Assembly (NCBI RefSeq): GCF_963967315.1
Contig: NZ_OZ017288.1
Coordinates: 360,001-392,000, forward strand
Reading direction: 5' to 3'
Length of the DNA stretch: 32,000 bases
Source of the DNA: Candidatus Minimicrobia sp. QA0096
GTDB taxonomy: Bacteria; Patescibacteriota; Saccharimonadia; Saccharimonadales; Saccharimonadaceae
The notes below the pieces were generated by a model. It saw only the letters and a program-made list of their open reading frames with translations, made no database searches and was not told the origin of the DNA. Positions 1-31,774 of this stretch are shown piece by piece (the stretch's first letter is position 1; each line of letters begins with the position of its first letter). The translations under genes were made by a program, and so were the position numbers.

Positions 1-5
1 TTATG

Positions 6-14
6 TGATATACT
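6..14 (+). promoter_or_regulatory. extended -10 box TGaTATACT, 6 nt before the response-regulator ATG
   Basis: Read directly. No SD fits in the 6-nt gap. Confidence 0.5.
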
Positions 15-20
15 TAAAGC

Positions 21-392
21 ATGATAAAAATCGCTATCATTGAAGACGACCCTACCATCAGCCAGATGTACCGAATGAAGTTCGAATCGGACGGGTTTGA
101 CGTTCGCTTGGCCGCCAACGGACAAATCGGCATAGAAGTAGTCGAAAAGTTTCAGCCAGATATTATTTTGCTAGATTTACAAATGCCAGAAATGGACGGC
201 GCGGAAGCCTTAAAGCGAATTAGGTCTAAAGATTGGGGCAAAACTATTCCCGTTATCGTCCTCACTAATCTCGGCGAAGAAGAAGCTCCGCGCGATTTGA
301 AGAAATTAGGAATTCATAGCTACATCGTAAAAGCAAACCTCACGCCGCGCCAAGTTGTCGAGCAAGTCAAAGCCGCCATAAAAGCTGCTTAG
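21..392 (+). CDS. stand-alone response-regulator receiver (CheY-like REC) protein
   Basis: 123 aa. REC hallmarks are present: EDD near the N-terminus, the phospho-acceptor Asp in IILLDLQMP, Thr in VIVLTN and Lys in YIVKA. There is no output domain. The stop overlaps the convergent folD stop by 4 nt. Confidence 0.9.
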   Translation: MIKIAIIEDDPTISQMYRMKFESDGFDVRLAANGQIGIEVVEKFQPDIILLDLQMPEMDGAEALKRIRSKDWGKTIPVIVLTNLGEEEAPRDLKKLGIHSYIVKANLTPRQVVEQVKAAIKAA

Positions 393-1201
393 TTTTTTGA
401 TTGATTCGCAATTTTCAAACAAGCCGTAATTACATTATCAAACAGCGCAGAAACCGTTAATGGACCGACTCCGCCTTTTTTTGGTGTAATAATTACATCA
501 TTACGCTGACGCACTTCTTCAGATACGTCGCCAACAATTTTTCCATTTTCCGAAGCAGTTCCCGCGTCAATAACAACCGCCTTAGTCTTAATCATCTGAC
601 TTTTAATCAGCCCTGGAACTCCAGTTGCCGACACGATAATATCGTAATTTATCAATTGAGATAAATCGTCACCTTTTTCAAAAACCGTCACATCAACGCC
701 AGACTTTAGCCACATTTTCTCAAGAGGCGCACCAACCAAACGGCCTCGCCCGACAATTGCGACTTTTTTATTTTTCAAGTCAACGCCATATCCAGCTAGC
801 AGCCAACTAATAGCCGTTGGCGTGGCTGCCTGAAAAATCGCCCTCTTGCGCAGACCGTCAACATCTTTATCTTCTCGAATACTCTCGAGTAGTTCCTCAG
901 TCTGACCAGGATTACTAATCGGCAATTGCAGAATTATTCCTTGAACATCGTCTCGATTGTTCAATTCTTGAATCACCTCCAAAGCACCGCCCGCAGGGAC
1001 TCGATGAATCTCCACGTCAATCAAAATATCAGCGCCATACCTCTGCTTCAAACGCATATACGTTTCAATGACTGGATTTTCGACATCAGTAACAATTGCC
1101 AAACGAGGATTAATGTGCCAAGCCTGCCTTAAAGCTCGCACCTGTTTCGCCTGGCGCTCCTTGATAAATCCAGCTAATTCTGAGCCATTTAGTTCTCTCA
1201 T
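389..1201 (-). CDS. folD: bifunctional methylenetetrahydrofolate dehydrogenase/cyclohydrolase FolD
   Basis: The protein matches the FolD family over its whole length (ELAGFIKERQ..., GRGRLVGAPL Rossmann loop, PKKGGVGPLTVSAL C-terminal motif). The ORF is open to 1228, but the Met at 1201 (MRELNGSEL...) fits family N-termini and lies 8 nt downstream of a TGcTATACT box. Confidence 0.9.
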   Translation of the reverse strand: MRELNGSELAGFIKERQAKQVRALRQAWHINPRLAIVTDVENPVIETYMRLKQRYGADILIDVEIHRVPAGGALEVIQELNNRDDVQGIILQLPISNPGQTEELLESIREDKDVDGLRKRAIFQAATPTAISWLLAGYGVDLKNKKVAIVGRGRLVGAPLEKMWLKSGVDVTVFEKGDDLSQLINYDIIVSATGVPGLIKSQMIKTKAVVIDAGTASENGKIVGDVSEEVRQRNDVIITPKKGGVGPLTVSALFDNVITACLKIANQSKN

Positions 1202-1209
1202 TGTCATTA

Positions 1210-1218
1210 AGTATAGCA
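1210..1218 (-). promoter_or_regulatory. extended -10 box TGcTATACT, 8 nt before folD ATG 1201
   Basis: Reverse strand reads TTGCTATACTTAATGACAATGAGA. Confidence 0.45.
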
Positions 1219-1229
1219 ATTTTACCATC

Positions 1230-1258
1230 TTGAGTACAGATATAGTATGTGCTATAAT
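1230..1258 (+). promoter_or_regulatory. tRNA-His promoter: -35 TTGAGT, 17-nt spacer, TGcTATAAT
   Basis: Hexamers at 1230-1235 and 1253-1258, with TG at 1250-1251. The tRNA starts 18 nt after the -10 box. Confidence 0.6.
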
Positions 1259-1276
1259 TTGAAAAGCTTGGTTTAT

Positions 1277-1355
1277 GGCGGATGTAGCTCAGTTTGGTTA
1301 GAGCGCTGGATTGTGGCTCCGGAGGCCGTGGGTTCGAACCCCATCATTCGCCCCA
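1277..1355 (+). tRNA. tRNA-His (anticodon GTG) with encoded G-1 and encoded CCA
   Basis: Hand-folded cloverleaf: acceptor GCGGATG/CATTCGC, D arm GCTC/GAGC, anticodon stem CTGGA/TCCGG with loop TTGTGGC, T arm GTGGG-TTCGAAC-CCCAT. An extra 5' G at 1277 opposes discriminator C, which is the His identity element. Confidence 0.9.
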
Positions 1356-1404
1356 AGTTTTACAACAATTTATTCACACCGATAAATTATTTTCAATAAA
1401 ACGG

Positions 1405-1986: not shown

Positions 1987-2063
1987 TGGCGCCCCGAGTA
2001 GGATTCGAACCTACGACCTTAGGCTTAGAAGTCCTCTGCTCTATCCAACTGAGCTATCAGGGC
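1987..2063 (-). tRNA. tRNA-Arg (anticodon TCT), CCA encoded
   Basis: On the reverse strand: acceptor GCCCTGA/TCGGGGC, D arm GCTC/GAGC, anticodon loop CTTCTAA, T arm GTAGG-TTCGAAT-CCTAC. The anticodon stem GAGGA/GCCTA has only 3 Watson-Crick pairs (G27.A43 and A31.G39 mismatches). Confidence 0.78.
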
Positions 2064-2066
2064 GTA

Positions 2067-2095
2067 TTCACATTATAACATCTTTCTGCTACAAT
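2067..2095 (+). promoter_or_regulatory. tRNA-Gly promoter: -35 TTCACA, 17-nt spacer, TGcTACAAT
   Basis: Hexamers at 2067-2072 and 2090-2095. Confidence 0.6.
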
Positions 2096-2100
2096 AGTAA
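2072..2100 (-). promoter_or_regulatory. tRNA-Arg(TCT) promoter: -35 TTACTA, 17-nt spacer, TGtTATAAT
   Basis: Reverse-strand hexamers at 2095-2100 and 2072-2077. The -10 box ends 8 nt before the tRNA 5' end. Confidence 0.6.
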
Positions 2101-2106
2101 AAGCTT

Positions 2107-2181
2107 GCGGGTGTAGTACAGCGGTTAGTATGCAAGTTTTCCAAACTTGAGATGGGAGTTCGATTCTCCCCACCCGCACCA
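2107..2181 (+). tRNA. tRNA-Gly (anticodon TCC), CCA encoded
   Basis: Acceptor GCGGGTG/CACCCGC, anticodon stem CAAGT/ACTTG with loop TTTCCAA, T arm GGGAG-TTCGATT-CTCCC. Confidence 0.92.
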
Positions 2182-2213: not shown

Positions 2214-4019
2214 ATGGATCCATATATTTATACAGAAAAGCCAAAATACCAGCCGCATGATATTGAAGATGCGTCCGAATTTTATGATGTAATTGAACGA
2301 AGCAGCTTAACGCATCAATTGTCTGAAAACCGACCATATGTCTATTGGACGATGGAGATTTATGATAAATCCAATGGTATTAAAGGCGGCGGCGGACTTG
2401 GAGTTTTAGCGGCGGACACGCGACGTGTAGCTGAAAAATTAGAAGTTCCATTCGTAGTAGTAGCACCGTTTTACCGTAGCGAATCACACCAGAAAATCAC
2501 CGACCTCGCACAAGAAGAGTTTTCGGAATCCGTTTCACCTCAAGATTACGGATTTGAATATATTGACGAAGTTTTCGTAAGTTCAAATGGATTCCCAGAT
2601 GCAAGCTTAAGCATTTTTAAGAAGACGCTCGGTTCAACACAATTTGTTACAATTTCAGAACCGAACTTTGGACAATTGTACGAAGGCGACGGATCTGGCG
2701 ATCATAGACTATACCAAGAAGTAGCGCTGGGATTTGGCGGCTATAAAGCATTAAAGCTCCTCGGTATTAAGCCGGCTGTTATTCAACTTAATGAGACCGC
2801 AACGATTTTTGCTGCATTGGCACGACTAGACGAGCTGTGCGCTAACGGAATGAATTTATACGAAGCCATCGTTTACGTTCGCAAGCACACACTTTATACA
2901 AACCATACGCTTCTTCAAGCGGCCGAACCGGAATTTCATCGTTCGCAATTTGAAAAATTAGTTCTGCCAAATATAAAGAGCAACGCCGTACGTTGCTGGC
3001 TAATGGAACAATTTCGCAACGACAGACTGAGGCCGAATCTTTTGGCAATTGAACTTACTGAAGCGAAGAATGGTGTAAGTAAACTACACGCCCGTGTAGC
3101 AAATTTCCGCGACCGCAACAACGACAAAGTTAAATTTCAAGCCATTACTAATGGAATAGATCTCGAAACGTGGATGCTACCTGAAACATTGCAAACATAT
3201 CGCAATCATGGCATTATCGATAAATTTGGGCTGCCCACAAATGATTTTTCTGAAAAATTAGACTCGTTGAGTAGTGCGGATTTGAGGTATTTGAAAAAAC
3301 TCGGTCGAAAGGAGTTGAATCGAGTCCTATTGAGTCGCAAAGATCAGTACGGAAAATCCATACAAATCCCAGAAAATGCAATATTATTCGACTTCAAGCG
3401 AAGATTCGCCAATTACAAACGACCTTATATGCCGTTTGAAAACCCAGATTCATTACGACAAATTCTCATTAGCCATAACGCGCATTATATTCTGACAGGA
3501 AAAGTTCACCAAGGTGACGTGACGATGTATCAGAAATTGCTCGAAGTATTAAAATTGATTGACAACGATCCAGTCCTCAAGGAGCGTGTTCATTACATAC
3601 AAGATTACGATGAAGAGTTGGGGCGAGCGTTAGCAATCGGCTCAGATGCCTCGATAAATATTCCTATTGTCGGATTAGAAGCGTGCGGCACTTCATGGGA
3701 GAAAGACGTCGCCAACTTGAAACTCCTCATCTCCACTAGTGACGGCGGCGTTGCTGATGTCCAGCCAATCGCTTGCCTCGAGGTTACCGGGAGAAACTAC
3801 GAAGCCGAAGTTTCATCTCTGTACGTCAACATGCATAAAGCTGCCGCTATTTTGAAAAATGATCAATTATTGGAAAAACATGTTCGCCACCAATTAAGCA
3901 ACTATTTGCCAATTATCTCTGGCGCTCGAATGATGAAAGATTATCTCAAATTTATTTTTCCAAAACCGCAAATCCAGCCTAAAAAAGAACCACAGATCAA
4001 GCGAATTCCTATTCAATAA
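2214..4019 (+). CDS. glgP: alpha-glucan (glycogen/maltodextrin) phosphorylase family protein, GT35, short and divergent
   Basis: 601 aa. GT35 motifs appear in the correct order: GGGGLGVLAAD, YTNHTLLQAAEPEF, NGVSKLHA, ITNGI, FDFKRRFANYKR, TGKVHQGD, and EACGTSWEK (the PLP-lysine position). An AAGGG SD lies 6 nt before the ATG. Confidence 0.75.
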   Translation: MDPYIYTEKPKYQPHDIEDASEFYDVIERSSLTHQLSENRPYVYWTMEIYDKSNGIKGGGGLGVLAADTRRVAEKLEVPFVVVAPFYRSESHQKITDLAQEEFSESVSPQDYGFEYIDEVFVSSNGFPDASLSIFKKTLGSTQFVTISEPNFGQLYEGDGSGDHRLYQEVALGFGGYKALKLLGIKPAVIQLNETATIFAALARLDELCANGMNLYEAIVYVRKHTLYTNHTLLQAAEPEFHRSQFEKLVLPNIKSNAVRCWLMEQFRNDRLRPNLLAIELTEAKNGVSKLHARVANFRDRNNDKVKFQAITNGIDLETWMLPETLQTYRNHGIIDKFGLPTNDFSEKLDSLSSADLRYLKKLGRKELNRVLLSRKDQYGKSIQIPENAILFDFKRRFANYKRPYMPFENPDSLRQILISHNAHYILTGKVHQGDVTMYQKLLEVLKLIDNDPVLKERVHYIQDYDEELGRALAIGSDASINIPIVGLEACGTSWEKDVANLKLLISTSDGGVADVQPIACLEVTGRNYEAEVSSLYVNMHKAAAILKNDQLLEKHVRHQLSNYLPIISGARMMKDYLKFIFPKPQIQPKKEPQIKRIPIQ

Positions 4020-5532
4020 TCACTTCAATCTCAGCACCTAACGAGTTTAAGCGTGTCGCCAATTCCTCGTATCCGCGATTAATCGAATATACATCGCGCA
4101 GAATCGACACACCTGGAGCAGCAAGCATTGCCAAAAGTATCACAACGGACGGACGAAGCGCTGGCGGAGCAACAACGTCGGCCGGCTTCCATCTTGTTGG
4201 ACCAGTGATATAAACACGGTGTGGGTCAACCAGTTCAATTTGTGCATTTAGTTTACTGAGCTCTGTAAAGTAAATTGCTCGGTTCTCGTAACTCCAGTCG
4301 TGAACCAACGTGCGTCCCTCAGCTACCGTCGCAATAAGCCCCAAGAACGGCAAATTGTCCATATTAATTCCCGGGAACGGCAAGGCGTGTAGCTTATCCT
4401 TGGCTGCCTGGAGTTTGGAACGCCGCAATTTAATATCAACCAAACGAGTTTGTCCATTATTAGCAAAATATTCCTTGCTGAGTTCAAATTTAAGACCCAT
4501 CTCCGCCAATGTCGCTAATTCAATTTCCAAGAACTCAATCGGCGCACGACGAACAGTAATTTCCGAATCCGTCACTGCAGCCGCCGCAATAAAACTCATC
4601 GCTTCAATCGGATCTTCGCTCGGATAATAGTCCAGATTTTTACTAATTCGTTTACGACCCGTGATTTTCAAGGTTGTCGTACCAATTCCCTCAATTTTCA
4701 CACCCAACTTCTTCAAGAAGAAGCAGACGTCTTGAACCATGTAATTTGGGCTAGCGTTGCGGATGATGGTAGTGTTTGGCGACAACGCCGCAGCCATAAT
4801 GATATTTTCCGTCACCGTATCGCCGCGCTCCGTCAGCAAAATCGTTCGATCGCCAGAATTGACATCAGTTTTTGCGTGATAATAATCAGTTTCCGCCGTA
4901 ACGTTCATTCCAAAATGTCTCAAACCACTAAGATGCGGCTCGACCGTGCGCTTGCCTAAATTACAGCCGCCAGCAAACGGCAATTTGAAATCGTCATATT
5001 GATGCAGTAGCGGACCAAGGAACATAATTACCGTCCTAGTTCTCTTCGCCGCAGCAATATCCATATCTTCAAGTTTCAAGCGCGCTGGCGGCACGATCTC
5101 AAGATCACTACCGTCCAACCAGCGAGTTTTAACACCAATCGAATTCAAAACCTCGATAATTCGGTTGACCTCCTCAATTCGCGCCACTTTCCTAAGCGTC
5201 GTTTTTCCCTTATTCAACAAACTCGCACAAAGAAGACCTACTGCAGCGTTTTTACTAGTCTTAACTTGTATCTCACCAGACAATTTTTTGCCGCCAGTGA
5301 CCTTAAAATTCATTTTTCCGGAATGATTTACGGTTACGATATTGTTATTAAGCACCTCGCTAATTCGAGCGATCATATCAATACTAATATTCTGACCTCC
5401 GTTTTCAATGCGATTAATAGCACTCTGAGATGTACCAATTGCTTCAGCCAACTGAGTCTGAGTTAGCCCCTGTTTTTGACGATTTTCAGCGATTAAATTG
5501 CCGATTTTTTGAAGATACTTGTCTTTTATCAT
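4009..5532 (-). CDS. murA: XRE-type helix-turn-helix domain fused to UDP-N-acetylglucosamine 1-carboxyvinyltransferase (MurA)
   Basis: 507 aa. Residues ~8-66 form an XRE HTH (GLTQTQLAEAIGTSQSAINRIENG). From Met74 the sequence is MurA-like: TSKNAAV (the Lys22 region), AGGCNLGKRTVEPH (catalytic Cys and Arg), and NRGYEELATRLNSLGAEIE at the C-terminus. No stop separates the two parts. Confidence 0.85.
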   Translation of the reverse strand: MIKDKYLQKIGNLIAENRQKQGLTQTQLAEAIGTSQSAINRIENGGQNISIDMIARISEVLNNNIVTVNHSGKMNFKVTGGKKLSGEIQVKTSKNAAVGLLCASLLNKGKTTLRKVARIEEVNRIIEVLNSIGVKTRWLDGSDLEIVPPARLKLEDMDIAAAKRTRTVIMFLGPLLHQYDDFKLPFAGGCNLGKRTVEPHLSGLRHFGMNVTAETDYYHAKTDVNSGDRTILLTERGDTVTENIIMAAALSPNTTIIRNASPNYMVQDVCFFLKKLGVKIEGIGTTTLKITGRKRISKNLDYYPSEDPIEAMSFIAAAAVTDSEITVRRAPIEFLEIELATLAEMGLKFELSKEYFANNGQTRLVDIKLRRSKLQAAKDKLHALPFPGINMDNLPFLGLIATVAEGRTLVHDWSYENRAIYFTELSKLNAQIELVDPHRVYITGPTRWKPADVVAPPALRPSVVILLAMLAAPGVSILRDVYSINRGYEELATRLNSLGAEIEVIIE

Positions 5533-5538
5533 GCGTAA

Positions 5539-5547
5539 ATTATATCA
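5539..5547 (-). promoter_or_regulatory. extended -10 box TGaTATAAT, 6 nt before the HTH-murA ATG
   Basis: Reverse strand reads TTAGTGATATAATTTACGCATG. Confidence 0.55.
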
Positions 5548-5567: not shown

Positions 5568-5576
5568 TGATATAAT
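5568..5576 (+). promoter_or_regulatory. glyA promoter, extended -10 box TGaTATAAT
   Basis: Followed by the GGAGG SD (5587-5591) and ATG 5599, giving a predicted leader of about 16 nt. Confidence 0.55.
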
Positions 5577-5598
5577 AAGTATTAACGGAGGTTTAGTC

Positions 5599-6867
5599 AT
5601 GAAAGACAAGCAAATTGAAGAACTTATAAAAGCAGAAAAAAAGCGTCAAACGGACGGCCTGGAACTAATTCCTAGCGAGAATTACGTTTCGTCAGATGTA
5701 CTTCAGGCGCTCGGTAGTGTTTTCACTAATAAATATTCAGAAGGCTATCCTGGTCGACGCTATTACGGTGGACAAGAAAACACCGATCAAGTCGAACAAC
5801 TGGCGATTGACCGCGCTAAGAAACTTTTCAAAGCAGATCACGCTAACGTCCAGCCACATTCTGGCGCACAGGCTAATGAGGCGGTTTATTACGCTTGGTG
5901 CGAGCCTGGCGACACTATTCTGGCTATGGATTTGGCTCACGGCGGACATCTTACGCACGGCGCCCCAGTTACTCGTAGCGCCAGAGAGTATAACTTCATT
6001 CGCTATGGCATAAAAAATATCGACACTGGCGAAATTGACTATGAAGAAATTCGTCAATTAGCCTTAAAACACAAACCAAAGATCATTCTGGCGGGATTTT
6101 CGGCATATCCACGAGAGTTAGATTACGAAAAATTTGCCGAAATTGGCAATGAAGTCGGCGCCATGCTAATGGCAGATATGAGCCATATTGCGGGGCTAAT
6201 CGTTAGTGGTGTTGCCAAAAACCCGTTCGATTACGGTTTTCACGTAATTACCACAACAACTCATAAAACTCTACGTGGACCACGAGGCGGGTTGATTCTT
6301 AGTCGAGGAATAGTTGGCAATCCATTGAAAAAACCAGAGAAAACTCTCGAGAATTTACCTACGTTGATTGATCGAGCGGTATTCCCTGGCACGCAAGGCG
6401 GACCACACATGCACACCATCGCTGCAAAAGCCGTAGCGTTCGGTGAAGCTTTGCAGTCAGAATTCAAAGATTACGCCGAGCAAATTGTCAAAAATGCAAA
6501 AAGACTGGCGGAAGAGTTGCAAAAGCGTGGCTTTAAGTTAGTAACTGGCGGCACCAGTAACCATTTGATTCTGGCAGATATTCACAGTAGCTTCGGCATT
6601 GATGGCAAGGAAGCGGAAATCGCCATGGATAAAATTGGTCTGACACTGAATGCCAATGCGATTCCAGACGACCCACTACCAAGATTTAGGCCAAGCGGTA
6701 TTCGCTTAGGCACGCCAGCCGTCACGACGCGAGGCGCCGAAGAAGACGACATGGAAAAAATCGCAGAATGGATGAGGCGGTCAATAGATAATCGCGACAA
6801 TAACGAAATGTTGGCTGAACTCCGTAAAGAAGTTATGGAATTCTGCCATACTCTACGCGATATTTAA
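5599..6867 (+). CDS. glyA: serine hydroxymethyltransferase GlyA
   Basis: Family-wide similarity ([35 protein letters not shown] with the PLP lysine). The ORF is open from 5551, but GGAGG at 5587-5591 lies 7 nt before the ATG at 5599 (MKDKQIEEL...). Confidence 0.93.
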
Positions 6868-10547: not shown

Positions 10548-11020
10548 ACACTATCCACCTTCTTCTCTACTCCTGTTGAAAACTCTTTATATATAATGCT
10601 ATATTTCACACAAGTTACCGCTACAACATCAGACACAGGACCGGACGCAGGCTTCGTGCAATCGCCGTCATCCACATTCGAAGCTTCATACAATAACTCA
10701 CCATTATTTCCGCCAGCCCAATCACTACGATTACACTTGATCATCTCCTTTTTCAGAGAATCACCTCCTACAATTGATGAAAAATCCTTAATTAAATCAG
10801 CACAGGAAGGATACTCGTGACCGATAGAACTAACATTTTTATACTTGTAATATCGTTCCAACCTCAAGGACAGTTCAGACACATCAGCCCTCTGCTCCTG
10901 ATCTTTAGTTAGGTTCAAAAATCTTCCGCCACCAACAAAGGCAATGCTAGCCAAAATTGCAACAACCACCACTACTATCGCCAATTCAATTATCGTATAA
11001 CCACCCGTCCCACGATTCAT
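10535..11020 (-). CDS. minor pilin (FimU/PilE-like), first gene of the minor-pilin operon
   Basis: Prepilin motif MNRGTGG|YTIIELAIVVVVVAIL. The track ORF starts at a TTG (11038), but the ATG at 11020 gives a typical 7-aa leader and lies 6 nt downstream of TACAAT. Confidence 0.75.
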   Translation of the reverse strand: MNRGTGGYTIIELAIVVVVVAILASIAFVGGGRFLNLTKDQEQRADVSELSLRLERYYKYKNVSSIGHEYPSCADLIKDFSSIVGGDSLKKEMIKCNRSDWAGGNNGELLYEASNVDDGDCTKPASGPVSDVVAVTCVKYSIIYKEFSTGVEKKVDSVWRD

Positions 11021-11026
11021 ATCAAT

Positions 11027-11032
11027 ATTGTA
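11027..11032 (-). promoter_or_regulatory. -10 box TACAAT, 6 nt before the minor-pilin ATG 11020
   Basis: Reverse strand reads GCTACAATATTGATATG. Confidence 0.45.
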
Positions 11033-11061: not shown

Positions 11062-12087
11062 TTATCGGGAAAGTTCTAGCGGCTCTTGCTCAATTTTTAT
11101 ACCGAACTTGTCAAAGACAATTTGCACAATTTCCTCACGAATCGCCGCCAAGTCATCATATCCCGTTGCCGAATCATTCACAAGCACCAACGCATTTTTT
11201 TCATAAACCCGCATGCCGTGACTGCGATAACCCCTTAAGCCAGCCTTATCTATCAACCAACCTGTCGGGATTTTATATCTTCCGTCCGACATTGCATAAT
11301 TTGGAATGTCGCTATATTCTTTTTGCAATTCTTCCAATTTCCATTTTTCAACCAGCGCGTTTTTGAAGAAAGAACCTGCACTTGGCAATTCCGCTGGGTC
11401 TGGCAATTTTTCCGAACGAATGTTAAGAACTGCCACGCGAATCACTGACAAATTGACCTCGCGAATATCATTTTCATCAATATATTTCTGCAAAGAAGCG
11501 TAGTATGGCGGTTTCGGCTCTGATTTATTTAGTCGCAAAGTAATATTCAGAATGCAATATCGTCCTTTTTCCTTGTCACGAAAAATACTGTTTCGATAAG
11601 AAAAATCACATTCGTCAGCGGAAATAGTTACAATTGTGTCGGTTTTTGAATCGTAAGCCTCCAGACTAATCAACGTATCAGCGATTTCTTGACCGTACGC
11701 CCCAACGTTCTGGACTGGCGCAGCTCCAGCCGTTCCGGGAATTCCCGACATAGCCTCAACTCCCTGAAGTCCAAGCCCAATAGCCCTCTCAACAACCTCG
11801 TCCCAGACTTCGCCCGCACCAATTTTCACATCAGTTGTTTCGTCAGTTTCAGAGATAACCTCAAAACCTTTAATCTTATTCAACAGTACGATTCCCTCAA
11901 AAACCTCATCATGCGTAATCACATTACTGCCACCACCCAACACAAAAATCGGCAAATTTTCCTTTCGAGCATTACGATATAGCGACACAACATCACTAGC
12001 AGAATCCGCTGTCGCCATATAGCGAGTCTCACCTCCCAATTTCATAGTTGTATATTGTTTCAGTGATATATTAGTCATGACGTCCAT
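11062..12087 (-). CDS. murB: UDP-N-acetylenolpyruvoylglucosamine reductase MurB
   Basis: 341 aa. FAD-binding N-terminus (LKQYTTMKLGGETRY, FVLGGGSNVI) and MurB C-terminal motifs (GSFFKN, PTGWLIDKAGLRG). Confidence 0.9.
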   Translation of the reverse strand: MDVMTNISLKQYTTMKLGGETRYMATADSASDVVSLYRNARKENLPIFVLGGGSNVITHDEVFEGIVLLNKIKGFEVISETDETTDVKIGAGEVWDEVVERAIGLGLQGVEAMSGIPGTAGAAPVQNVGAYGQEIADTLISLEAYDSKTDTIVTISADECDFSYRNSIFRDKEKGRYCILNITLRLNKSEPKPPYYASLQKYIDENDIREVNLSVIRVAVLNIRSEKLPDPAELPSAGSFFKNALVEKWKLEELQKEYSDIPNYAMSDGRYKIPTGWLIDKAGLRGYRSHGMRVYEKNALVLVNDSATGYDDLAAIREEIVQIVFDKFGIKIEQEPLELSR

Positions 12088-12093
12088 ACATAT

Positions 12094-12102
12094 AGTATAT
12101 CA
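12094..12102 (-). promoter_or_regulatory. extended -10 box TGaTATACT, 6 nt before the murB ATG
   Basis: Reverse strand reads AAATGATATACTATATGTATG. Confidence 0.55.
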
Positions 12103-12122: not shown

Positions 12123-12131
12123 TGATATAAT
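12123..12131 (+). promoter_or_regulatory. tRNA-Arg(TCG) promoter, extended -10 box TGaTATAAT
   Basis: Lies 10 nt before the tRNA 5' end. Confidence 0.55.
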
Positions 12132-12141
12132 AACTTCATAC

Positions 12142-12218
12142 GCACCCGTAGCTCAGCGGATTAGAGTACTTGGCTTCGAACCAAGGGGTCGCAAGTTCGA
12201 ATCTTGCCGGGTGTACCA
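12142..12218 (+). tRNA. tRNA-Arg (anticodon TCG), CCA encoded
   Basis: Acceptor GCACCCG/CGGGTGT, anticodon stem CTTGG/CCAAG with loop CTTCGAA, T arm GCAAG-TTCGAAT-CTTGC. Confidence 0.9.
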
Positions 12219-14736: not shown

Positions 14737-15107
14737 ACAGAAACTCCCAATTGCCATAAAATAATTCCGATAAACGGCATCAGCGGCAGCGCCAGCCACA
14801 TAATAATTCCTAAAATCATCCACAAAAATCGTAGTAATATCATCAATATTCCAATAATTATCACCATGGAGCGCACCACCGCGCCAATTACTCGCGAGAA
14901 CATCTTGTCAAAAAACGCAGATAGCTGCACAGATAAGTCGCCGCCAACCGGAGCGGCTGAAATCTGGCGAAACGGATTGAATAAGGTTTTCAAAAGCAGC
15001 CCGACTGAGAAAAAATCCGCGGTTCGTAAAACCCCTAGAAAACTTTGTCGGATATATTGCAACAAGCCATTGCCGTACCACCACTGAAAGATACCCACCA
15101 AAAACAT
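14727..15107 (-). CDS. hypothetical small membrane protein, translationally coupled to the Clp-like gene
   Basis: 126 aa from ATG 15107 (MFLVGIFQWWYGNG...), with two C-terminal hydrophobic helices. Its stop overlaps the Clp-like start (GTATGGAAATAG). TGcTACAAT lies 6 nt upstream of this ATG. I recognise no family. Confidence 0.55.
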   Translation of the reverse strand: MFLVGIFQWWYGNGLLQYIRQSFLGVLRTADFFSVGLLLKTLFNPFRQISAAPVGGDLSVQLSAFFDKMFSRVIGAVVRSMVIIIGILMILLRFLWMILGIIMWLALPLMPFIGIILWQLGVSVWK

Positions 15108-15113
15108 ATTGAT

Positions 15114-15122
15114 ATTGTAGCA
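15114..15122 (-). promoter_or_regulatory. extended -10 box TGcTACAAT, 6 nt before membrane-protein ATG 15107
   Basis: Reverse strand reads GATGTGCTACAATATCAATATG. Confidence 0.55.
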
Positions 15123-15144
15123 CATCGACCCGGCAGAGTATAAT
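15115..15144 (+). promoter_or_regulatory. murT promoter: -35 TTGTAG, 18-nt spacer, -10 TATAAT, 7 nt before the ATG
   Basis: Hexamers at 15115-15120 and 15139-15144; ATG at 15152. Confidence 0.5.
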
Positions 15145-15151
15145 AGACAAT

Positions 15152-16414
15152 ATGGCAAGACAGATGATTAGTACTATTATTGGCAAAAGCGTCAAGAAAG
15201 TCGCTAAATTACGCGGTGGCGGTTCAGCCTTGCCGGGTTTGGTGATTGAAAAAATTGACCCAAAATTTATTCAGAGAACGCTGGCGGATTTACCGCAAGG
15301 CGTGGTGATTATCAGCGGAACGAATGGGAAAACAACGACGACAAAAATCGTCGTAGAGTTGCTGGAATCAGTCGGGCTGAAAGTCTTCACTAATCGCACT
15401 GGTAGCAATTTTTCCCGAGGTGTGGCAGCGGCGCTACTTGATGAGGTCAATATCCGCGGCAAGCTGGACGCCGACATTGCGGTTCTGGAACTGGACGAGG
15501 CTTGGGCGGTTAAGTTTGTACAAATTGTTCGTCCGCGCTTTTCCCTGCTTCTGAATGTTATGCGTGATCAATTGGACAGATTTGGAGAAATCGACAATAC
15601 AGCCGCATTGCTCCAAAAAATAGCTGAAGCAACCAGCGACACTGTCGTTCTCAACAGCGACGATCCGCGAATTTTTAAGATTAGCGAACATATTCAGGCT
15701 AAAAAAGCTTTCTTCGGCACAACCAGCGAATTACTTCAATTGATGCCAACGGACGACACTCTAAAATACGGAACCGCGGTCGCAAATCAAAGCGTAGTTG
15801 CCGATGTCTTATTGAAAAAAATTAACGCTCAACAGGCAACTTTTCAAATTGACAATAAAGAAATTGACGTAGATCTGCAACTCACTGGAGTTTACAATCT
15901 TCTCAATGCGGCGGCGGCGGTTGCTCTGGCTCGACAAATAGCGGGACCGGAAATTACCGATACGATTTTATCTGCGCTGGAAAATATAAAGCCGGCGTTT
16001 GGTCGTGGCGAAACGATTTACCTGAATGGCACGCCAATTGAGCTTATTTTGGTGAAAAATCCAAGTGGTTTTCGGTTGGCACTTCTGTCATTCGCCAAAA
16101 ATAATAGTACTACGATGATCGCTGTTAATGACAATTACGCCGATGGACGAGATGTCAGTTGGTTCTGGGACGTCGATTTTTCACTATTGAAAAACGTAGT
16201 AATGATCAGCGGCGCACGCGCTTATGATATGGCTTTGCGGCTTCAATACGACGACATTCCAATTGGAAAAATTGACACCAATATTTCGAAGGCCTTGGAA
16301 GATTTCATTAATACTAATCCCGACGAGCCAAAACAGATTTTTTGTAGCTACACAGCCATGACAGCGATTCGTCGCCTGCTGAGCGAAAAAACCGACGTGG
16401 AGGAAATATCATAA
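15152..16414 (+). CDS. murT: lipid II isoglutaminyl synthase subunit MurT (Mur ligase family)
   Basis: Mur ligase P-loop ISGTNGKTTTT, plus the MurT C-terminal signature YADGRDVSWFWDVDF. It is followed immediately by gatD. Confidence 0.85.
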   Translation: MARQMISTIIGKSVKKVAKLRGGGSALPGLVIEKIDPKFIQRTLADLPQGVVIISGTNGKTTTTKIVVELLESVGLKVFTNRTGSNFSRGVAAALLDEVNIRGKLDADIAVLELDEAWAVKFVQIVRPRFSLLLNVMRDQLDRFGEIDNTAALLQKIAEATSDTVVLNSDDPRIFKISEHIQAKKAFFGTTSELLQLMPTDDTLKYGTAVANQSVVADVLLKKINAQQATFQIDNKEIDVDLQLTGVYNLLNAAAAVALARQIAGPEITDTILSALENIKPAFGRGETIYLNGTPIELILVKNPSGFRLALLSFAKNNSTTMIAVNDNYADGRDVSWFWDVDFSLLKNVVMISGARAYDMALRLQYDDIPIGKIDTNISKALEDFINTNPDEPKQIFCSYTAMTAIRRLLSEKTDVEEIS

Positions 16415-22055: not shown

Positions 22056-22510
22056 GCCATATTCTCCTTTATTTTTCCCAAAAGTTCATCAGATTTTTTG
22101 CCGCCAGGATAAAATTCCACAAGTCGCCCTTCTTCGCTGATCGCAGTAATTTTTATCACCAACCGATCGCTCGGCAATGCATCATCGACAGCACCAGCCC
22201 ATTCAACTACAACAACCGAATTAGAATCCGCCACTTCACGAATCTCTTCGCTCATAATTCCAGCATTTCCCAATCTATAAAAATCGTAATGCGCCAAACT
22301 CAGACCGCGAGGCGAATCGTACACGCGCGAAATTGTGAATGTTGGACTCTGAACCGGCTCGTTGATCTCTAAAGCTTGCGCAATTCCCTTCGTCAACGTG
22401 GTTTTCCCCGCGCCAATATCACCGACCAATTCCAGAACCTCCCCACCAGAAACAGCCCGGCCAATTGCCGCGCCCAATTCTCGCATTTTCTCTTCACCAG
22501 AAATATTCAC
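22052..22510 (-). CDS. tsaE: t6A biosynthesis ATPase TsaE
   Basis: GDIGAGKTTLTKG P-loop, SPTFT, HYDFYRL and VVVVEW. The track start is a GTG at 22510; an in-frame ATG 8 codons downstream is an alternative. Confidence 0.85.
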   Translation of the reverse strand: MNISGEEKMRELGAAIGRAVSGGEVLELVGDIGAGKTTLTKGIAQALEINEPVQSPTFTISRVYDSPRGLSLAHYDFYRLGNAGIMSEEIREVADSNSVVVVEWAGAVDDALPSDRLVIKITAISEEGRLVEFYPGGKKSDELLGKIKENMA

Positions 22511-22516
22511 TCTTTT

Positions 22517-22522
22517 ATTATA
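22517..22522 (-). promoter_or_regulatory. -10 box TATAAT, 6 nt before the tsaE GTG start
   Basis: Reverse strand reads GCATAGTATAATAAAAGAGTG. Confidence 0.4.
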
Positions 22523-22551
22523 CTATGCTAGCTTTTTTTTGGCGATGATAG

Positions 22552-22557
22552 TACAAT
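22552..22557 (+). promoter_or_regulatory. possible pilB promoter -10 box TACAAT, 13 nt before the ATG
   Basis: Read directly. Would give a very short leader. Confidence 0.3.
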
Positions 22558-22570
22558 AACCATAAGAGTT

Positions 22571-27848: not shown

Positions 27849-28129
27849 GTCCATCAATATCAGAACAGCTTGAACCAATCGTAAAATCACTGTCCAAATT
27901 CCTGTGGCGATTTCATGTGATAATATATAGCGTTGTCGTAATCGGAGGCGTAGCAATCGCGATATTTCTTTTGAGTGGACTTTTAGCAGTTCCTACCGAA
28001 GAACCACAAACCGCATCAATAAGTTTTGACAAAAAAACCATGAAAATTATTAAAGACTTCCGACCATCAACTTCAACAAACGACTCATTTAGTCTGCCGG
28101 CTGGTCGCTCCAATCCGTTTGCCGAATAG
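27845..28129 (+). CDS. small single-pass membrane protein in the pil operon (PilP position)
   Basis: 94 aa with one TM helix (VIIYSVVVIGGVAIAIFLLSGLL). ATGA overlap with pilO. I recognise no family. Confidence 0.45.
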   Translation: MSPSISEQLEPIVKSLSKFLWRFHVIIYSVVVIGGVAIAIFLLSGLLAVPTEEPQTASISFDKKTMKIIKDFRPSTSTNDSFSLPAGRSNPFAE

Positions 28130-28141
28130 AACGTAACCGTT

Positions 28142-28147
28142 TATAAT
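28142..28147 (+). promoter_or_regulatory. -10 box TATAAT, 6 nt before the PRC-barrel gene ATG
   Basis: Reads GTTTATAATATAGTTATG. Confidence 0.45.
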
Positions 28148-28153
28148 ATAGTT

Positions 28154-28741
28154 ATGCTTATATCCGCAGATCGCTTCCTTGATATTCCCGTCATGAGTCT
28201 TCAGACGGGCTCCGAACTGGCGCGAACATCGCGAGAAATTATCAATCCGAAGAATCTGTCTATAATCGCATATGAGCTTGAGGGGCGACTTTTGGACCAA
28301 CATCCTAGTTTACTTCGCGTTGACGATGTCAGAGAAATTGGGCCGCTCGGTATGATTATTGATTCAACCGATGAGATCATAGGCATTGATGATGTTATTG
28401 CTATAAAAGAAATTTATGAAATCAATTTTGCATTAAAAGACAAGTTGGTTATTGATGAAAAGAATAAGAAAATCGGAAAAGTTATCGGATATACGTTGGC
28501 GGCTGGGAATTTTATTATACAACAGCTCCGAATTCGGCGACCATTCTTGAAAAGTTTTGGCGACACAGAGCTACTTATTCATCGTTCTCAGATTGTAAAA
28601 GTGACCGATGATAAAATCGTTGTAAAATCAGCAACTATCTCGCATATAGCCGAAAAAACACCTATTCCGCAGATAAATTCATACGAAAACCCATTCCGCA
28701 AGCAGCCTCGTCCACAACCAGAATCTACAAAAGTTGATTAA
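28154..28741 (+). CDS. tandem PRC-barrel-like domain protein
   Basis: 195 aa. Two segments resemble PRC barrels (IPVMSLQTGSELARTSREIINPKNLSIIAYELEG and LVIDEKNKKIGKVIGYTLAAGNFIIQQLRI). The domain call rests on remembered pattern only. Confidence 0.5.
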   Translation: MLISADRFLDIPVMSLQTGSELARTSREIINPKNLSIIAYELEGRLLDQHPSLLRVDDVREIGPLGMIIDSTDEIIGIDDVIAIKEIYEINFALKDKLVIDEKNKKIGKVIGYTLAAGNFIIQQLRIRRPFLKSFGDTELLIHRSQIVKVTDDKIVVKSATISHIAEKTPIPQINSYENPFRKQPRPQPESTKVD

Positions 28742-29391: not shown

Positions 29392-29402
29392 CTATATATG
29401 AA

Positions 29403-30458
29403 TTAACTTTCAGCTTCCTTCACTTTATCACGCACTTTCTGATCAATTTCCGCCAAAACCTCAGGATTTTCCTTCAAATAATTCTTCGTCTTGTCACGCC
29501 CCTGACCAATCGTTTCGCCGTTATATTTATAAAACGCACCAGATTTTTCAACTATACCGTGCGTTGCCGCCAAGTCCAGAATATCGCCAGTTTTACTAAT
29601 TCCCTCGTTGTACATAATGTCAAATTCAGCCACACGGAACGGCGGTGCAATCTTATTTTTCACAACCTTAATTTTTGTGCGATTACCAATAATATCATCG
29701 CCAACTTTGATCTGACCAATTCGACGAATATCAATTCGCTGCGACGCGTAAAATTTCAAGGCATTACCGCCAGTTGTCGTTTCAGGATTGCCAAACATCA
29801 CGCCAATTTTCATACGAATCTGATTGATAAAGATAACCGTGGCTTTTGATTTATTGATGATTCCCGTCAATTTACGTAGAGCCTGACTCATCAATCGAGC
29901 CTGAAGACCCATATGAGAATCGCCCATATCGCCATCAATTTCAGCCTGTGGCGTCAAGGCAGCCACCGAGTCAACTATCACCAAATCCACCGCATTAGAA
30001 CGAACCAACGTTTCTGTAATTTCCAATGCTTGCTCGCCGTTATCTGGCTGAGAAACCAACAAATTTTCCGTATCTACACCCAGACGCTTAGCGTATGCTG
30101 GATCAAGGGCGTGCTCAGCATCAATAAACGCTGCCGTTCCACCCTGCTTCTGAATTTCTGCAATAGCGTGAAGCGTCAATGTTGTCTTACCCGAGCTTTC
30201 TGGACCATAGATTTCTATGATACGACCTTTTGGATATCCGCCACCGAGCGCCAAATCCAAACTCAAAGCACCAGAAGGAATTACTTCAACATCGACTTTA
30301 TGAGCCTCGCCCAATTTCATAATTGATCCGTCGCCAAATTGCTTGGTGATTTGATCCATTGCTAGACCAAGCGCCTTAAGCTTGCCTTCATCAACTTTTT
30401 TATCCGATGCCTGACTTGACTTTTCTGGATTTACTGTTTTACTGTCTGATTTTGCCAT
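29403..30458 (-). CDS. recA: recombinase RecA
   Basis: [14 protein letters not shown]-loop, FIDAEHALD and [18 protein letters not shown]. Confidence 0.97.
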
Positions 30459-30485
30459 AGCATTCCCTCCTTAGTTACTTCTTTT

Positions 30486-30491
30486 ATTATA
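30486..30491 (-). promoter_or_regulatory. possible recA promoter -10 box TATAAT
   Basis: Reverse strand reads CGGTATAATAAAAGAAGTAACTAAGGAGGGAATGCTATG. This unit is SD-led. Confidence 0.4.
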
Positions 30492-30509
30492 CCGATTTGT
30501 CGCAAGATT

Positions 30510-30518
30510 TGCTATAAT
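30510..30518 (+). promoter_or_regulatory. extended -10 box TGcTATAAT, 7 nt before the orphan pilin ATG
   Basis: Reads TTTGCTATAATTACATTCATG. Confidence 0.55.
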
Positions 30519-30525
30519 TACATTC

Positions 30526-30918
30526 ATGAATAAGCGAAACGGTTTCACTATTATTGAACTTTTGGTTGTAGCGACTTTCTTGATTGTTATCGCAATCTTA
30601 GGTTTCTCACAATATACAAAATTGACCAACGAATCAAACAACGCCAAAAAACGCACCGCGATTAACGCTATGCATTATAGCCTGGAAGAAGGTTTTTACG
30701 TTAAAAATGGCTATTACCCAGAGAAGCTAGAAGAAGGTACGCTTCCAACTATGGATCCCGCATTGTTAAAAGATCCACAAGGTAAGAAAATTGGCGAAAA
30801 AGACAGCAGTTACCGCTATGAATCTTCAAATTGTAATGACGGAAAATGTAAGTCATACAAACTTGTCGCGACGCTTGTCGATGAAGATGACTATATAAAA
30901 GAAAGTCGCCACAAATAA
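30526..30918 (+). CDS. orphan type IV pilin / pseudopilin-like protein
   Basis: 130 aa with prepilin motif MNKRNG|FTIIELLVVATFLIVIAIL and a C-terminal CNDGKC pair. Confidence 0.8.
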   Translation: MNKRNGFTIIELLVVATFLIVIAILGFSQYTKLTNESNNAKKRTAINAMHYSLEEGFYVKNGYYPEKLEEGTLPTMDPALLKDPQGKKIGEKDSSYRYESSNCNDGKCKSYKLVATLVDEDDYIKESRHK

Positions 30919-30922
30919 TTAG

Positions 30923-31759
30923 CTAATCATCACAAACAGGACGGCCATTCTTAAAGTCTTCAATGGCATTATTGATTATCGCAATTTGCTTGCGTGGATT
31001 TGCCACAAAATGGAATATGTATGTCGTTTCTTCACCCTCAGTGCTGAGGCGAATCGTGCCATAATTGAAAAGAGTCTGAATAATGCCTGATTGGCGGAAG
31101 CTTGCATCTTCAATACTGCCTAAGCTCACCGTTTGCTCGTGTCGATAAAATAAGCTACCTTGGATTTCCTGAATCACACTTTCGTTGGTCATGTAAAAAT
31201 GATTCTGCAAATATATCCACAAGGACACCGCACCACCAAGCGCCACCAGCCCAATAAGCAGCATCGCCACGCCAAACATATCGGTTAGTGACGGCATTGG
31301 CGAAATAATCGAATCTCGAGCAATTGACGGATAAAACATCACAAACACCATGATCATCACCACTAAGAAAACCGAGATTCCCGTCGGGATTAGCATACCA
31401 ATCGGATGACGCTTAATATCCAAAATAATATATTCGCCTTCACTCAAATTGAGGTTTGGGTATTGCTGAACTGATTTTTCATGTTTTTGCTTCAAATCAT
31501 CGCTAATAGTAAACGGCTTCGGGTCAATATCCCTGGCAACATGGACAACTTGCGGTTCATTAGCATACTGACTACGTAATCGCGGATCAAAATTCTCCCC
31601 ATCAATAATTTCTGGTCTTGCCGTCACATAAGAATTCGTCTGCGCCACAACCGGAGCTGGACGACCAGTCTGTGGTGGATGGTGGTACAGTGGTCGACCA
31701 TCAGCATCATACGCAACAGGCTGCGTTAAATCTTCTGACGAGGATGTTTGTGGATTCAT
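30923..31759 (-). CDS. membrane protein with bacterial PH (bPH_2/YdbS-YdbT-like) domain and Pro-rich N-terminus
   Basis: 278 aa. EGEYIILDIKRHPIGML is followed by two TM helices and a C-terminal RHEQTVSLGSIEDASFRQSGIIQTLFNYGTIRLST segment. The family call is from remembered pattern. Confidence 0.6.
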   Translation of the reverse strand: MNPQTSSSEDLTQPVAYDADGRPLYHHPPQTGRPAPVVAQTNSYVTARPEIIDGENFDPRLRSQYANEPQVVHVARDIDPKPFTISDDLKQKHEKSVQQYPNLNLSEGEYIILDIKRHPIGMLIPTGISVFLVVMIMVFVMFYPSIARDSIISPMPSLTDMFGVAMLLIGLVALGGAVSLWIYLQNHFYMTNESVIQEIQGSLFYRHEQTVSLGSIEDASFRQSGIIQTLFNYGTIRLSTEGEETTYIFHFVANPRKQIAIINNAIEDFKNGRPVCDD

Positions 31760-31765
31760 GCCTAT

Positions 31766-31774
31766 ATTATAACA
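31766..31774 (-). promoter_or_regulatory. extended -10 box TGtTATAAT, 6 nt before the PH-domain protein ATG
   Basis: Reverse strand reads CGTGTTATAATATAGGCATG. Confidence 0.55.

What the first reader, a model, noticed from the sequence alone, without database searches (positions are those of the whole stretch)
1..31774. Recurrent -10 box exactly 6-8 nt upstream of start codons: pervasive leaderless mRNAs
At 11 first-in-unit genes a TAnAAT/TATACT hexamer, usually with the extended TGn, lies 6-8 nt before the start codon, leaving no room for an SD. The cases, given as start codon, box and spacer, are listed here. Start 21(+): TGaTATACT, spacer 6. Start 1201(-): TGcTATACT, spacer 8. Start 5532(-): TGaTATAAT, spacer 6. 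Start 11020(-): TACAAT, spacer 6. Start 12087(-): TGaTATACT, spacer 6. Start 15107(-): TGcTACAAT, spacer 6. Start 15152(+): TATAAT, spacer 7. Start 22510(-, GTG): TATAAT, spacer 6. Start 28154(+): TATAAT, spacer 6. Start 30526(+): TGcTATAAT, spacer 7. Start 31759(-): TGtTATAAT, spacer 6. By contrast, operon-internal or leadered genes carry clear SDs: glyA GGAGG, recA AAGGAGGG, pilN AGGAGG, pilC GGGAG and the Clp-like gene GGGAG. A -10 to +1 distance of about 7 nt places the transcription start on the A of the ATG. The pattern also resolves several ambiguous starts in the ORF track (folD, the first minor pilin, the small membrane protein). Leaderless initiation is well known in Actinobacteria and Deinococcus. 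I do not know of it being characterised for this kind of reduced-genome lineage.
Basis: seen in the sequence. Interest (0 to 1): 0.62.

Follow-up and report, generated by a model that had tools for sequence, protein, structure and literature searches.

The report
Leaderless gene starts in a Saccharibacteria genome
In this tiny (689 kb) Saccharibacteria/TM7 genome, about a quarter of genes have a promoter -10 box only 6-8 bases before the start codon, so their mRNAs very probably begin at the AUG with no ribosome-binding leader; this way of starting translation is well known in other bacteria but I found no published description of it for this lineage.

Summary
All 11 sites are in the sequence as described. 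An ATG follows TATAAT at a spacer of 6/7 nt 59/43 times genome-wide, against about 12 at other spacers. With no start selection, 172 ORF starts have a -10 box 5-9 nt upstream, against about 38 per neighbouring 5-nt bin.

The box is a promoter, not a ribosome-binding site. It carries an unselected TG extension and a weak TTG 17 bp upstream. It also sits 8-20 nt before 27 of 43 tRNA genes, and 20-29 nt before unit-first genes that have a Shine-Dalgarno (SD) sequence.

In spacer-6 genes the base before the ATG is a pyrimidine in 90% (50% in SD genes), which is a transcription-start signature. Leaderless-type starts make up 35-43% of unit-first genes and 9% of operon-internal genes. 93% of them use ATG.

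The layout is conserved at murB (24/30) and folD (18/30) orthologues. It is enriched in all 8 other genomes sampled from the class, and patchily elsewhere in the phylum. E. coli shows none.

The mechanism is known (GeneMarkS-2 group C), so this is a new lineage for a known kind. This scan has already reported the same pattern on several other Saccharibacteria genomes.

The parts
6..23 (+). TGaTATACT (hexamer 9-14), spacer 6, ATG 21: response-regulator receiver gene (123 aa)
   Evidence: PF00072 aligns from residue 4; C at -1
1199..1218 (-). TGcTATACT (hexamer 1210-1215), spacer 8, ATG 1201: folD (270 aa)
   Evidence: FolD profiles align from residue 1-4; 18/30 orthologues have a box 5-9 nt before the homologous start, which favours 1201 over 1228
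5530..5547 (-). TGaTATAAT (hexamer 5539-5544), spacer 6, ATG 5532: HTH_3-MurA fusion (507 aa)
   Evidence: no in-frame start upstream; C at -1
11018..11032 (-). TACAAT (11027-11032, no TG), spacer 6, ATG 11020: first minor prepilin (MNRGTG|GYTIIE). This is the weakest box of the 11 (score 10).
   Evidence: the N_methyl motif at residues 5-28 fits a 6-aa prepilin leader
12085..12102 (-). TGaTATACT (hexamer 12094-12099), spacer 6, ATG 12087: murB (341 aa)
   Evidence: about 24/30 orthologues across the class keep a -10-like box 6-9 nt before the homologous ATG
15105..15122 (-). TGcTACAAT (hexamer 15114-15119), spacer 6, ATG 15107: 126-aa membrane protein, first gene of the unit with the Clp-like gene
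   Evidence: the in-frame ATG 15125 and TTG 15158 lie upstream of the box
15139..15154 (+). TATAAT (15139-15144), spacer 7, ATG 15152: murT (420 aa). It is divergent from 15107 across a 44-bp intergenic region that holds both boxes.
   Evidence: the MurT profile aligns from residue 5
22508..22545 (-). -35 TCGCCA (22540-22545), 17 bp, TATAAT (22517-22522), spacer 6, GTG 22510: tsaE (152 aa)
   Evidence: the box is conserved only in close relatives (5/29); A at -1
28119..28156 (+). -35 TTGCCG (28119-28124), 17 bp, TATAAT (28142-28147), spacer 6, ATG 28154: 195-aa protein with no family match
30510..30528 (+). TGcTATAAT (hexamer 30513-30518), spacer 7, ATG 30526: 130-aa prepilin
   Evidence: N_methyl motif from residue 1
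31757..31774 (-). TGtTATAAT (hexamer 31766-31771), spacer 6, ATG 31759: 278-aa protein
5568..5601 (+). Leadered contrast, glyA: TGaTATAAT (hexamer 5571-5576), 22 nt containing SD GGAGG (5587-5591), ATG 5599
   Evidence: the same box at promoter distance from an SD-led start
30456..30491 (-). Leadered contrast, recA: TATAAT (30486-30491), 27 nt containing SD AAGGAGGG (30465-30472), ATG 30458
1250..1278 (+). Control: TGcTATAAT (hexamer 1253-1258) 19 nt before tRNA-His (1278-1355)
2063..2080 (-). Control: TGtTATAAT (hexamer 2072-2077) 8 nt before tRNA-Arg(tct) (2063-1987)
2087..2107 (+). Control: TGcTACAAT (hexamer 2090-2095) 11 nt before tRNA-Gly (2107-2181)
12123..12142 (+). Control: TGaTATAAT (hexamer 12126-12131) 10 nt before tRNA-Arg(tcg) (12142-12218)

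Best explanation
These are sigma-70-type promoters, mostly TG-extended -10 with a weak -35. They are placed so that RNA polymerase starts on, or 1-3 nt before, the A (or G) of the start codon. The first gene of about 35-43% of transcription units in this Saccharibacteria genome is therefore expressed as a leaderless mRNA with no Shine-Dalgarno sequence. By analogy with studied leaderless systems, its 5'-terminal AUG would be bound directly by the ribosome and initiator tRNA. Operon-internal genes and the remaining unit-first genes use short leaders (about 15-25 nt) with a classical SD that pairs with an intact anti-SD. What is shown: the motif, its spacing, its statistics, its promoter anatomy, its dependence on operon position and its conservation. 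What is inferred: that transcription really starts at the ATG, and that translation starts there without a leader.
For: (1) A sharp spacing peak at 6-7 nt, with a flat reversed-hexamer control. (2) Unselected promoter features: TG at -3/-2 of the hexamer (T 67%, G 72%) and TTG at 17-bp spacing. (3) The same box sits 8-20 nt before 27/43 tRNA genes and never closer than 8 nt. It also sits 20-29 nt before unit-first SD genes, while internal SD genes are flat. So it is a promoter element, and the start lies about 7 nt after it. (4) Pyrimidine at -1 in 73/81 spacer-6 genes against 153/309 SD genes (p = 4e-12) and 46% of internal ATGs. (5) Leaderless-type starts: 144/406 unit-first genes against 21/230 internal genes (p = 2e-14); SD shows the opposite trend. 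(6) Start codon ATG in 153/165 against 241/309 SD genes (p = 3e-5), with TTG only 5. (7) Family profiles align from residue 1-5 of the proposed proteins. (8) The box is kept at murB (about 24/30) and folD (18/30) orthologues at 28-59% protein identity, while the surrounding DNA is not conserved. (9) The 5-9 nt bin is enriched in all 8 other sampled genomes of the class. E. coli has 1 box there and peaks at 35-39 nt. (10) The anti-SD is intact and SD is enriched at internal genes, so two initiation modes coexist, as in GeneMarkS-2 group C (PMC6028130).
Against: Most of the 11 promoters lack a good -35, and the built-in two-hexamer scan finds only 2 of them and is barely above shuffles overall. 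About 22% of leaderless-type genes have spacers of 8-9 nt, which may give leaders of 1-3 nt. Boxes of similar score occur inside genes (8 in this window). The first 40 nt of leaderless-type genes are not significantly less structured than those of SD genes (p = 0.10). The tsaE box is conserved only in close relatives. Additional upstream promoters giving leadered isoforms cannot be excluded.
Confidence: 0.8

Rival explanations
1. Mixed transcripts: the boxes are real promoters, but many of these genes are also, or mainly, transcribed from promoters further upstream or by read-through. The leaderless form would then be a minor isoform, and translation would mostly use some non-SD, leadered route.
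For: 49 + 24 leaderless-type genes follow a same-strand neighbour at gaps of 26-80 or more than 80 nt, and 21 follow at 25 nt or less, so read-through is conceivable. -35 elements are weak.
Against: No SD or other conserved element lies upstream of these ATGs (only 4 genes have both signals at the same start). 71 leaderless-type genes face a divergent neighbour, often across only 40-70 bp, which leaves no room for another promoter plus a leader. The Y-1/R+1 signature sits exactly at the ATG.
Confidence: 0.12
2. The TATAAT-like box is a translation signal in the mRNA (an AT-rich, non-SD ribosome-binding or S1-binding element, as in GeneMarkS-2 group B genomes) and not a promoter.
For: It lies where an RBS would lie, and a short S1 homologue is present.
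Against: The same box with a TG extension precedes 27/43 tRNA genes. It lies 20-29 nt upstream of SD-led unit-first genes. It is nearly absent from operon-internal genes. It has a TTG at 17-bp spacing.
Confidence: 0.03
3. Chance, composition or an annotation artefact: AT-rich intergenic DNA plus free choice among start codons creates an apparent pattern.
For: Intragenic boxes followed by ATG do occur. My classifier chooses among candidate starts.
Against: Tests that select neither starts nor genes give the same peak. The reversed hexamer and E. coli controls are flat. Expected false calls are about 11 against 165 observed. Orthologue and profile alignments fix the starts independently.
Confidence: 0.02

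Closest known systems
Bacterial leaderless gene organisation: GeneMarkS-2 'group C' genomes (Actinobacteria such as Mycobacterium tuberculosis, M. smegmatis, Corynebacterium and Streptomyces; Deinococcus-Thermus). Lomsadze et al. 2018, PMC6028130
   Same: [quoted passage not shown] 25-50% of operons are leaderless. Internal and other genes carry an SD at the same distance. The anti-SD is retained. Here the figures are 35-43% of unit-first genes, with modal spacers of 6-7 nt.
   Different: The lineage is an ultrasmall episymbiont of Patescibacteria/CPR. The genome has moderate GC (43%), and the box is a near-consensus TGnTATAAT, not the degenerate TANNNT of high-GC Actinobacteria. ATG dominates (93%), whereas to my knowledge GTG is also common in mycobacterial leaderless genes. 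No experimental TSS map supports it yet.
Extended -10 (TGnTATAAT) sigma-70 promoters (E. coli, Bacillus, Streptococcus; my own knowledge)
   Same: A TG one base upstream of the -10 hexamer, a weak or dispensable -35, and a start about 7 nt downstream at a purine preceded by a pyrimidine.
   Different: Here the class is used systematically to abut start codons and tRNA 5' ends, which allows divergent promoter pairs within 43-67 bp.
Nanosynbacter lyticus TM7x RNA-seq-inferred start sites used in Promoter Architecture Scanner study (PMC12641261, citing PMID 35975994)
   Same: A related organism. 188 start sites were inferred and -10 elements were recognised by an E. coli-trained model.
   Different: The starts were inferred indirectly from coverage, the -10-to-start distance was reported as unusually variable, and leaderless mRNAs in this organism are not discussed. 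The preprint of the transcriptome paper does not mention start sites, UTRs or operons.

Membership tests
Bacterial leaderless gene architecture (GeneMarkS-2 group C) | -10 (Pribnow) box localised about 6-8 nt upstream of the start codons of first genes in operons | tested here: met
   Peak at spacers 6 (84) and 7 (47) with no start selection. Of 165 leaderless-type genes, 127 have spacer 6-7.
Bacterial leaderless gene architecture (GeneMarkS-2 group C) | A substantial fraction of transcription units affected (25-50% in group C) | tested here: met
   144/406 (35%) of unit-first genes and 71/166 (43%) of genes with a divergent upstream neighbour. The excess over background is about 20% of all ORFs.
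Bacterial leaderless gene architecture (GeneMarkS-2 group C) | Remaining genes (operon-internal or leadered) use an RBS, and the anti-SD is present | tested here: met
   16S rRNA ends ...GGATTACCTCCTTTCT. SD (dG <= -7) at 139/230 internal genes.
Bacterial leaderless gene architecture (GeneMarkS-2 group C) | Primary transcript 5' ends map to the start codon (dRNA-seq, 5' RACE) | not testable with these tools
The only indirect evidence is the Y-1/R+1 signature at the ATG and the tRNA spacing of at least 8 nt.
Bacterial leaderless gene architecture (GeneMarkS-2 group C) | Translation begins at the 5'-terminal AUG/GUG (N-terminal proteomics or reporters) | not testable with these tools
   Indirect only. 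Family profiles align from residue 1-5 and orthologue N-termini coincide.
Sigma-70 extended -10 promoter | TG one base upstream of a TATAAT-like hexamer, active without a strong -35, and used for untranslated genes as well | tested here: met
   TG enrichment was not selected for. The -35 is weak. 27/43 tRNA genes carry the box 8-20 nt upstream. Promoter activity itself was not tested.
Saccharibacteria (TM7), the organism | 16S rRNA carries TM7-specific probe and primer sites | tested here: met
   Exact matches to TM7-905, TM7-567, 580F and 1177R (probe sequences recalled from memory) in the single 16S gene. The genome is 689 kb.

The most novel reading that the evidence does not exclude
Leaderless initiation is not a quirk of this strain. 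It would be the ancestral, class-wide default for unit-first genes in Saccharimonadia, and it recurs in some but not all other Patescibacteria families (strong in three genomes of family f28, absent in f46 and f32). It would belong to a general removal of 5' leaders that also places promoters 8-12 nt from tRNA 5' ends and lets divergent genes share intergenic regions of 40-70 bp. If so, CPR bacteria would be a third large bacterial radiation, after Actinobacteria and Deinococcus-Thermus, with a mixed leaderless/SD translation regime. That bears on gene-start annotation for thousands of CPR genomes and on whether leaderless initiation is an old Terrabacteria-like trait.
Probability: 0.5. Interest if true: 0.55.

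Novelty: new member of a known kind. Interest (0 to 1): 0.4.

Why it matters
Saccharibacteria are only beginning to be cultured and genetically manipulated, and almost nothing is known about how they control gene expression. If a third or more of their transcription units are leaderless, three things follow.

1. Gene-start calls that assume an SD will be wrong for many genes. In this window that affects folD, a minor pilin and a small membrane protein.
2. Expression cassettes for these organisms can be built from a 9-bp TGnTATAAT box plus 6 nt.
3. Regulation must act on very compact promoters that overlap the start codon and often overlap the neighbouring divergent promoter.

The finding also adds a deep-branching, reduced-genome lineage to the list of bacteria with mixed leaderless/SD initiation, which is relevant to how translation initiation evolved. 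The mechanism itself is well known, and this scan has already reported the same pattern in several other Saccharibacteria genomes, so the surprise is moderate.

Tried and rejected
- **Literature.** Seven searches combined leaderless or Shine-Dalgarno with Saccharibacteria, Patescibacteria, CPR or TM7, or looked for the TM7x transcriptome paper. None found a description of leaderless initiation in this lineage. The GeneMarkS-2 supplementary tables that list group C genomes are not held, so I cannot exclude that a TM7 genome is already listed there. The NAR 2025 supplement with the TM7x start sites is not held. The TM7x transcriptome preprint has no text on start sites or UTRs.
- **Built-in promoter scan.** It needs a good -35, recovers only 2 of the 11 sites and is barely above shuffles, so it is not useful for this promoter class.
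- **5' mRNA structure.** Leaderless-type and SD genes do not differ significantly (-3.19 vs -3.74 kcal/mol, p = 0.10), so this does not discriminate.
- **tsaE orthologues.** The box is kept only in close relatives (5/29). Elsewhere the gene is operon-internal, so it gives no support for deep conservation at that gene.
- **S1 or IF3 loss as a correlate.** Rejected, because a short rpsA homologue and infC are both present.
- **My own classifier's start for the minor pilin.** It first chose GTG 10882, which would remove the N-methylation motif.

Full report
**Setting.** The window is bases 360001-392000 of a single-contig genome of 689,351 bp. The genome has 43.3% GC and uses the standard code. 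Its single 16S rRNA gene contains exact matches to four TM7-specific probe and primer sequences (the sequences were recalled from memory). The organism is therefore a Saccharibacteria (TM7) bacterium, in agreement with earlier notes of this scan that call it an oral Nanosynbacter.

**Check of the observation.** Seven carry the TG extension. Nine have a pyrimidine directly before the start codon. Seven have no in-frame start codon further upstream before a stop. The SD contrasts are also real: glyA GGAGG, recA AAGGAGGG, pilN AGGAGG, pilC GGGAG, and the Clp-like gene with GGGAG before ATG 14736.

**Is it more than chance?** I ran three tests.
- Test 1 used no gene model. I counted ATG at every distance after every TATAAT on both strands. 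The counts are 59 and 43 at spacers 6 and 7, against about 12 elsewhere, and the reversed hexamer ATTATA is flat.
- Test 2 made no start choice. I took the first ATG of every ORF of at least 120 codons. 172 have a -10 box (score >= 10) 5-9 nt upstream, against 38.5 per other 5-nt bin (Poisson p = 6e-56). The peak is at 6 (84) and 7 (47).
- Test 3 compared start types. A box scoring >= 11 at spacer 5-9 precedes 20.6% of first starts but only 0.36% of 3611 internal in-frame ATGs.

With my own simple gene caller (636 genes, 88% coverage), 165 genes (26%) are leaderless-type, against about 11 expected false calls. A further 309 have an SD (duplex dG <= -7 kcal/mol with the 16S tail), and 162 have neither. 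The eleventh (11020, TACAAT without TG) scores just below the threshold.

**Is the box a promoter or a ribosome-binding signal?** Four results that I did not select for say promoter.
1. Aligning 131 seed sites on the hexamer shows T (67%) and G (72%) at the extended -10 positions, and a weak T-T-G 23-21 nt upstream of the hexamer start, which is a -35 at 17-bp spacing.
2. The same TGnTATAAT boxes precede tRNA genes, which are never translated. Five tRNAs in the window have one. Genome-wide, 27 of 43 tRNAs have one at spacers of 8-20 nt (mode 8-12), and none is closer than 8 nt.
3. In unit-first genes that have an SD, the box peaks 20-29 nt upstream of the ATG, while operon-internal SD genes show nothing. 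glyA (22 nt) and recA (27 nt) in the window are examples.
4. In the 81 spacer-6 genes the base before the ATG is C or T in 90%, against 50% in SD genes (p = 4e-12) and 46% at internal ATGs. This is the pyrimidine(-1)/purine(+1) preference of bacterial transcription start sites, and it falls exactly on the start codon.

Taken together with the tRNA minimum of 8 nt, this places the start about 7 nt after the hexamer. That is the A of the ATG for spacer 6, and 0-3 nt upstream for spacers 7-9.

**Fit to the biology of leaderless genes.**
- Leaderless-type starts are 144/406 (35%) among unit-first genes and 71/166 (43%) where the upstream neighbour is divergent. They are only 21/230 (9%) among genes packed within 25 nt of a same-strand neighbour (p = 2e-14). 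SD shows the opposite trend.
- 93% of leaderless-type starts are ATG and only 3% are TTG, against 78% ATG for SD genes (p = 3e-5). This is expected if the first transcribed base must be a purine and a 5'-terminal AUG is needed.
- The 16S 3' end keeps CCUCC, and a short S1 homologue and IF3 are present. The organism therefore runs two initiation modes side by side.

**Are the chosen starts right?** NCBIfam and Pfam profiles align from residue 1-5 of the proposed FolD, MurB, MurT, TsaE and response-regulator proteins. Both prepilins carry the N-methylation motif at the very N-terminus. Starting at 11020, the minor pilin reads MNRGTG|GYTIIE, a typical short prepilin leader.

**Conservation.** I fetched orthologous loci from genomes of the same class (25 families).
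- At murB, about 24 of 30 orthologues (28-59% protein identity) have a TATAAT/TATACT/TAAAAT/TAGAAT box 6-9 nt before the homologous ATG, although the surrounding DNA is unalignable.
- At folD, 18 of 30 do, and the homologous start corresponds to 1201 and not 1228.
- At tsaE, only 5 of 29 (close relatives) do. Elsewhere tsaE follows another gene directly. So the layout tracks first-in-unit status and not the gene.

**Breadth.** I applied the no-selection test to 100-kb samples of 20 other genomes.
- All 8 sampled genomes of the class are enriched in the 5-9 nt bin (p from 0.04 to 4e-9; excess equal to 5-22% of ORFs).
- Outside the class the picture is patchy. Three genomes of family f28 are strong (12-21%). 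f85 and f40 are moderate, f45 is weak, and f46, f32, f60 and f39 show nothing.
- 100 kb of E. coli K-12 has one box at 5-9 nt and a peak at 35-39 nt.
- These genomes are related and the samples are small, so the p-values are descriptive only.

**What is missing.** The built-in two-hexamer promoter scan recovers only the two sites with a decent -35 (22510 and 28154) and is barely above shuffles. This shows that the promoters depend on the extended -10 and have weak -35 elements. Boxes of similar score also occur inside genes (8 in this window). 5' structure does not separate leaderless-type genes from SD genes. Leadered isoforms from upstream promoters cannot be excluded.

**Comparison with what is known.** The architecture matches the definition of GeneMarkS-2 group C: a Pribnow box 6-8 nt from the start of first genes in operons, 25-50% of operons leaderless, and an RBS elsewhere. 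That group is described for Actinobacteria and Deinococcus-Thermus (PMC6028130).

I found no paper in the searchable library that describes leaderless initiation in Saccharibacteria, Patescibacteria or CPR.
- A study of CPR ribosomes reports loss of the anti-SD in some Parcubacteria but does not discuss leaderless mRNAs (PMC9297842).
- A promoter study used 188 coverage-inferred start sites of N. lyticus TM7x and noted variable -10-to-start distances, without comment on leaders (PMC12641261).
- The group C genome list is not held, so an implicit earlier prediction cannot be excluded.

Within this scan, the same pattern has already been reported and confirmed at the sequence level on several other Saccharibacteria genomes. 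I treated those notes only as leads. All numbers here come from this genome and the loci I fetched.

**Verdict.** It is a new lineage for a known mechanism. Interest is moderate. It is useful for annotating and engineering Saccharibacteria, and suggestive for how translation initiation evolved, but the mechanism is not surprising and the finding is no longer new to this scan.

Noticed in passing
window 1250-1278, 1427-1441, 2063-2080, 2087-2107, 12123-12142; genome-wide: tRNA genes carry the same TGnTATAAT box only 8-12 nt (up to 20) before the mature 5' end. This holds for 27/43 tRNAs, and none is closer than 8 nt. Pre-tRNAs would therefore have 5' leaders of only about 1-6 nt for RNase P to remove.
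   Followed up: partly
window 4009-5532 (-): One uninterrupted 507-aa ORF fuses an XRE-type HTH_3 domain (residues 11-62) to a full-length MurA (residues 75-505). Its leaderless-type promoter overlaps the divergent glyA promoter within a 66-bp intergenic region.
   Followed up: no
window 15108-15151: Two divergent leaderless-type genes (the 126-aa membrane protein and murT) are separated by only 44 bp. Each -10 box lies where the other promoter's -35 would be.
   Followed up: no
window 14727-14736 (-): The Clp-like ATPase gene (start 14736, SD GGGAG) overlaps the end of the upstream 126-aa membrane-protein gene by 10 nt. The pair looks like a leaderless first gene followed by a coupled, SD-led second gene.
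   Followed up: no
G000:C1:642655-643656 (+): The only good ribosomal protein S1 homologue is short: a 393-aa open frame that matches positions 16-346 of the 516-position rpsA model and scores below the family cut-off.
   Followed up: no
loci L052-L056, L174-L183 (G063, G089, G110; family f28, another class of the phylum): Three genomes of one family outside the class show the same enrichment of -10 boxes 5-9 nt from starts (excess 12-21% of ORFs). Families f46 and f32 show none. The trait is patchy across the phylum.
   Followed up: partly
window 22523-22570: The pilB-like gene (ATG 22571) has neither an SD nor a box at 5-9 nt. A TACAAT lies 13 nt upstream, which would give a leader of about 6 nt with no SD. 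162 genes genome-wide fall in this 'neither' class, and how they initiate is unexplained.
   Followed up: no
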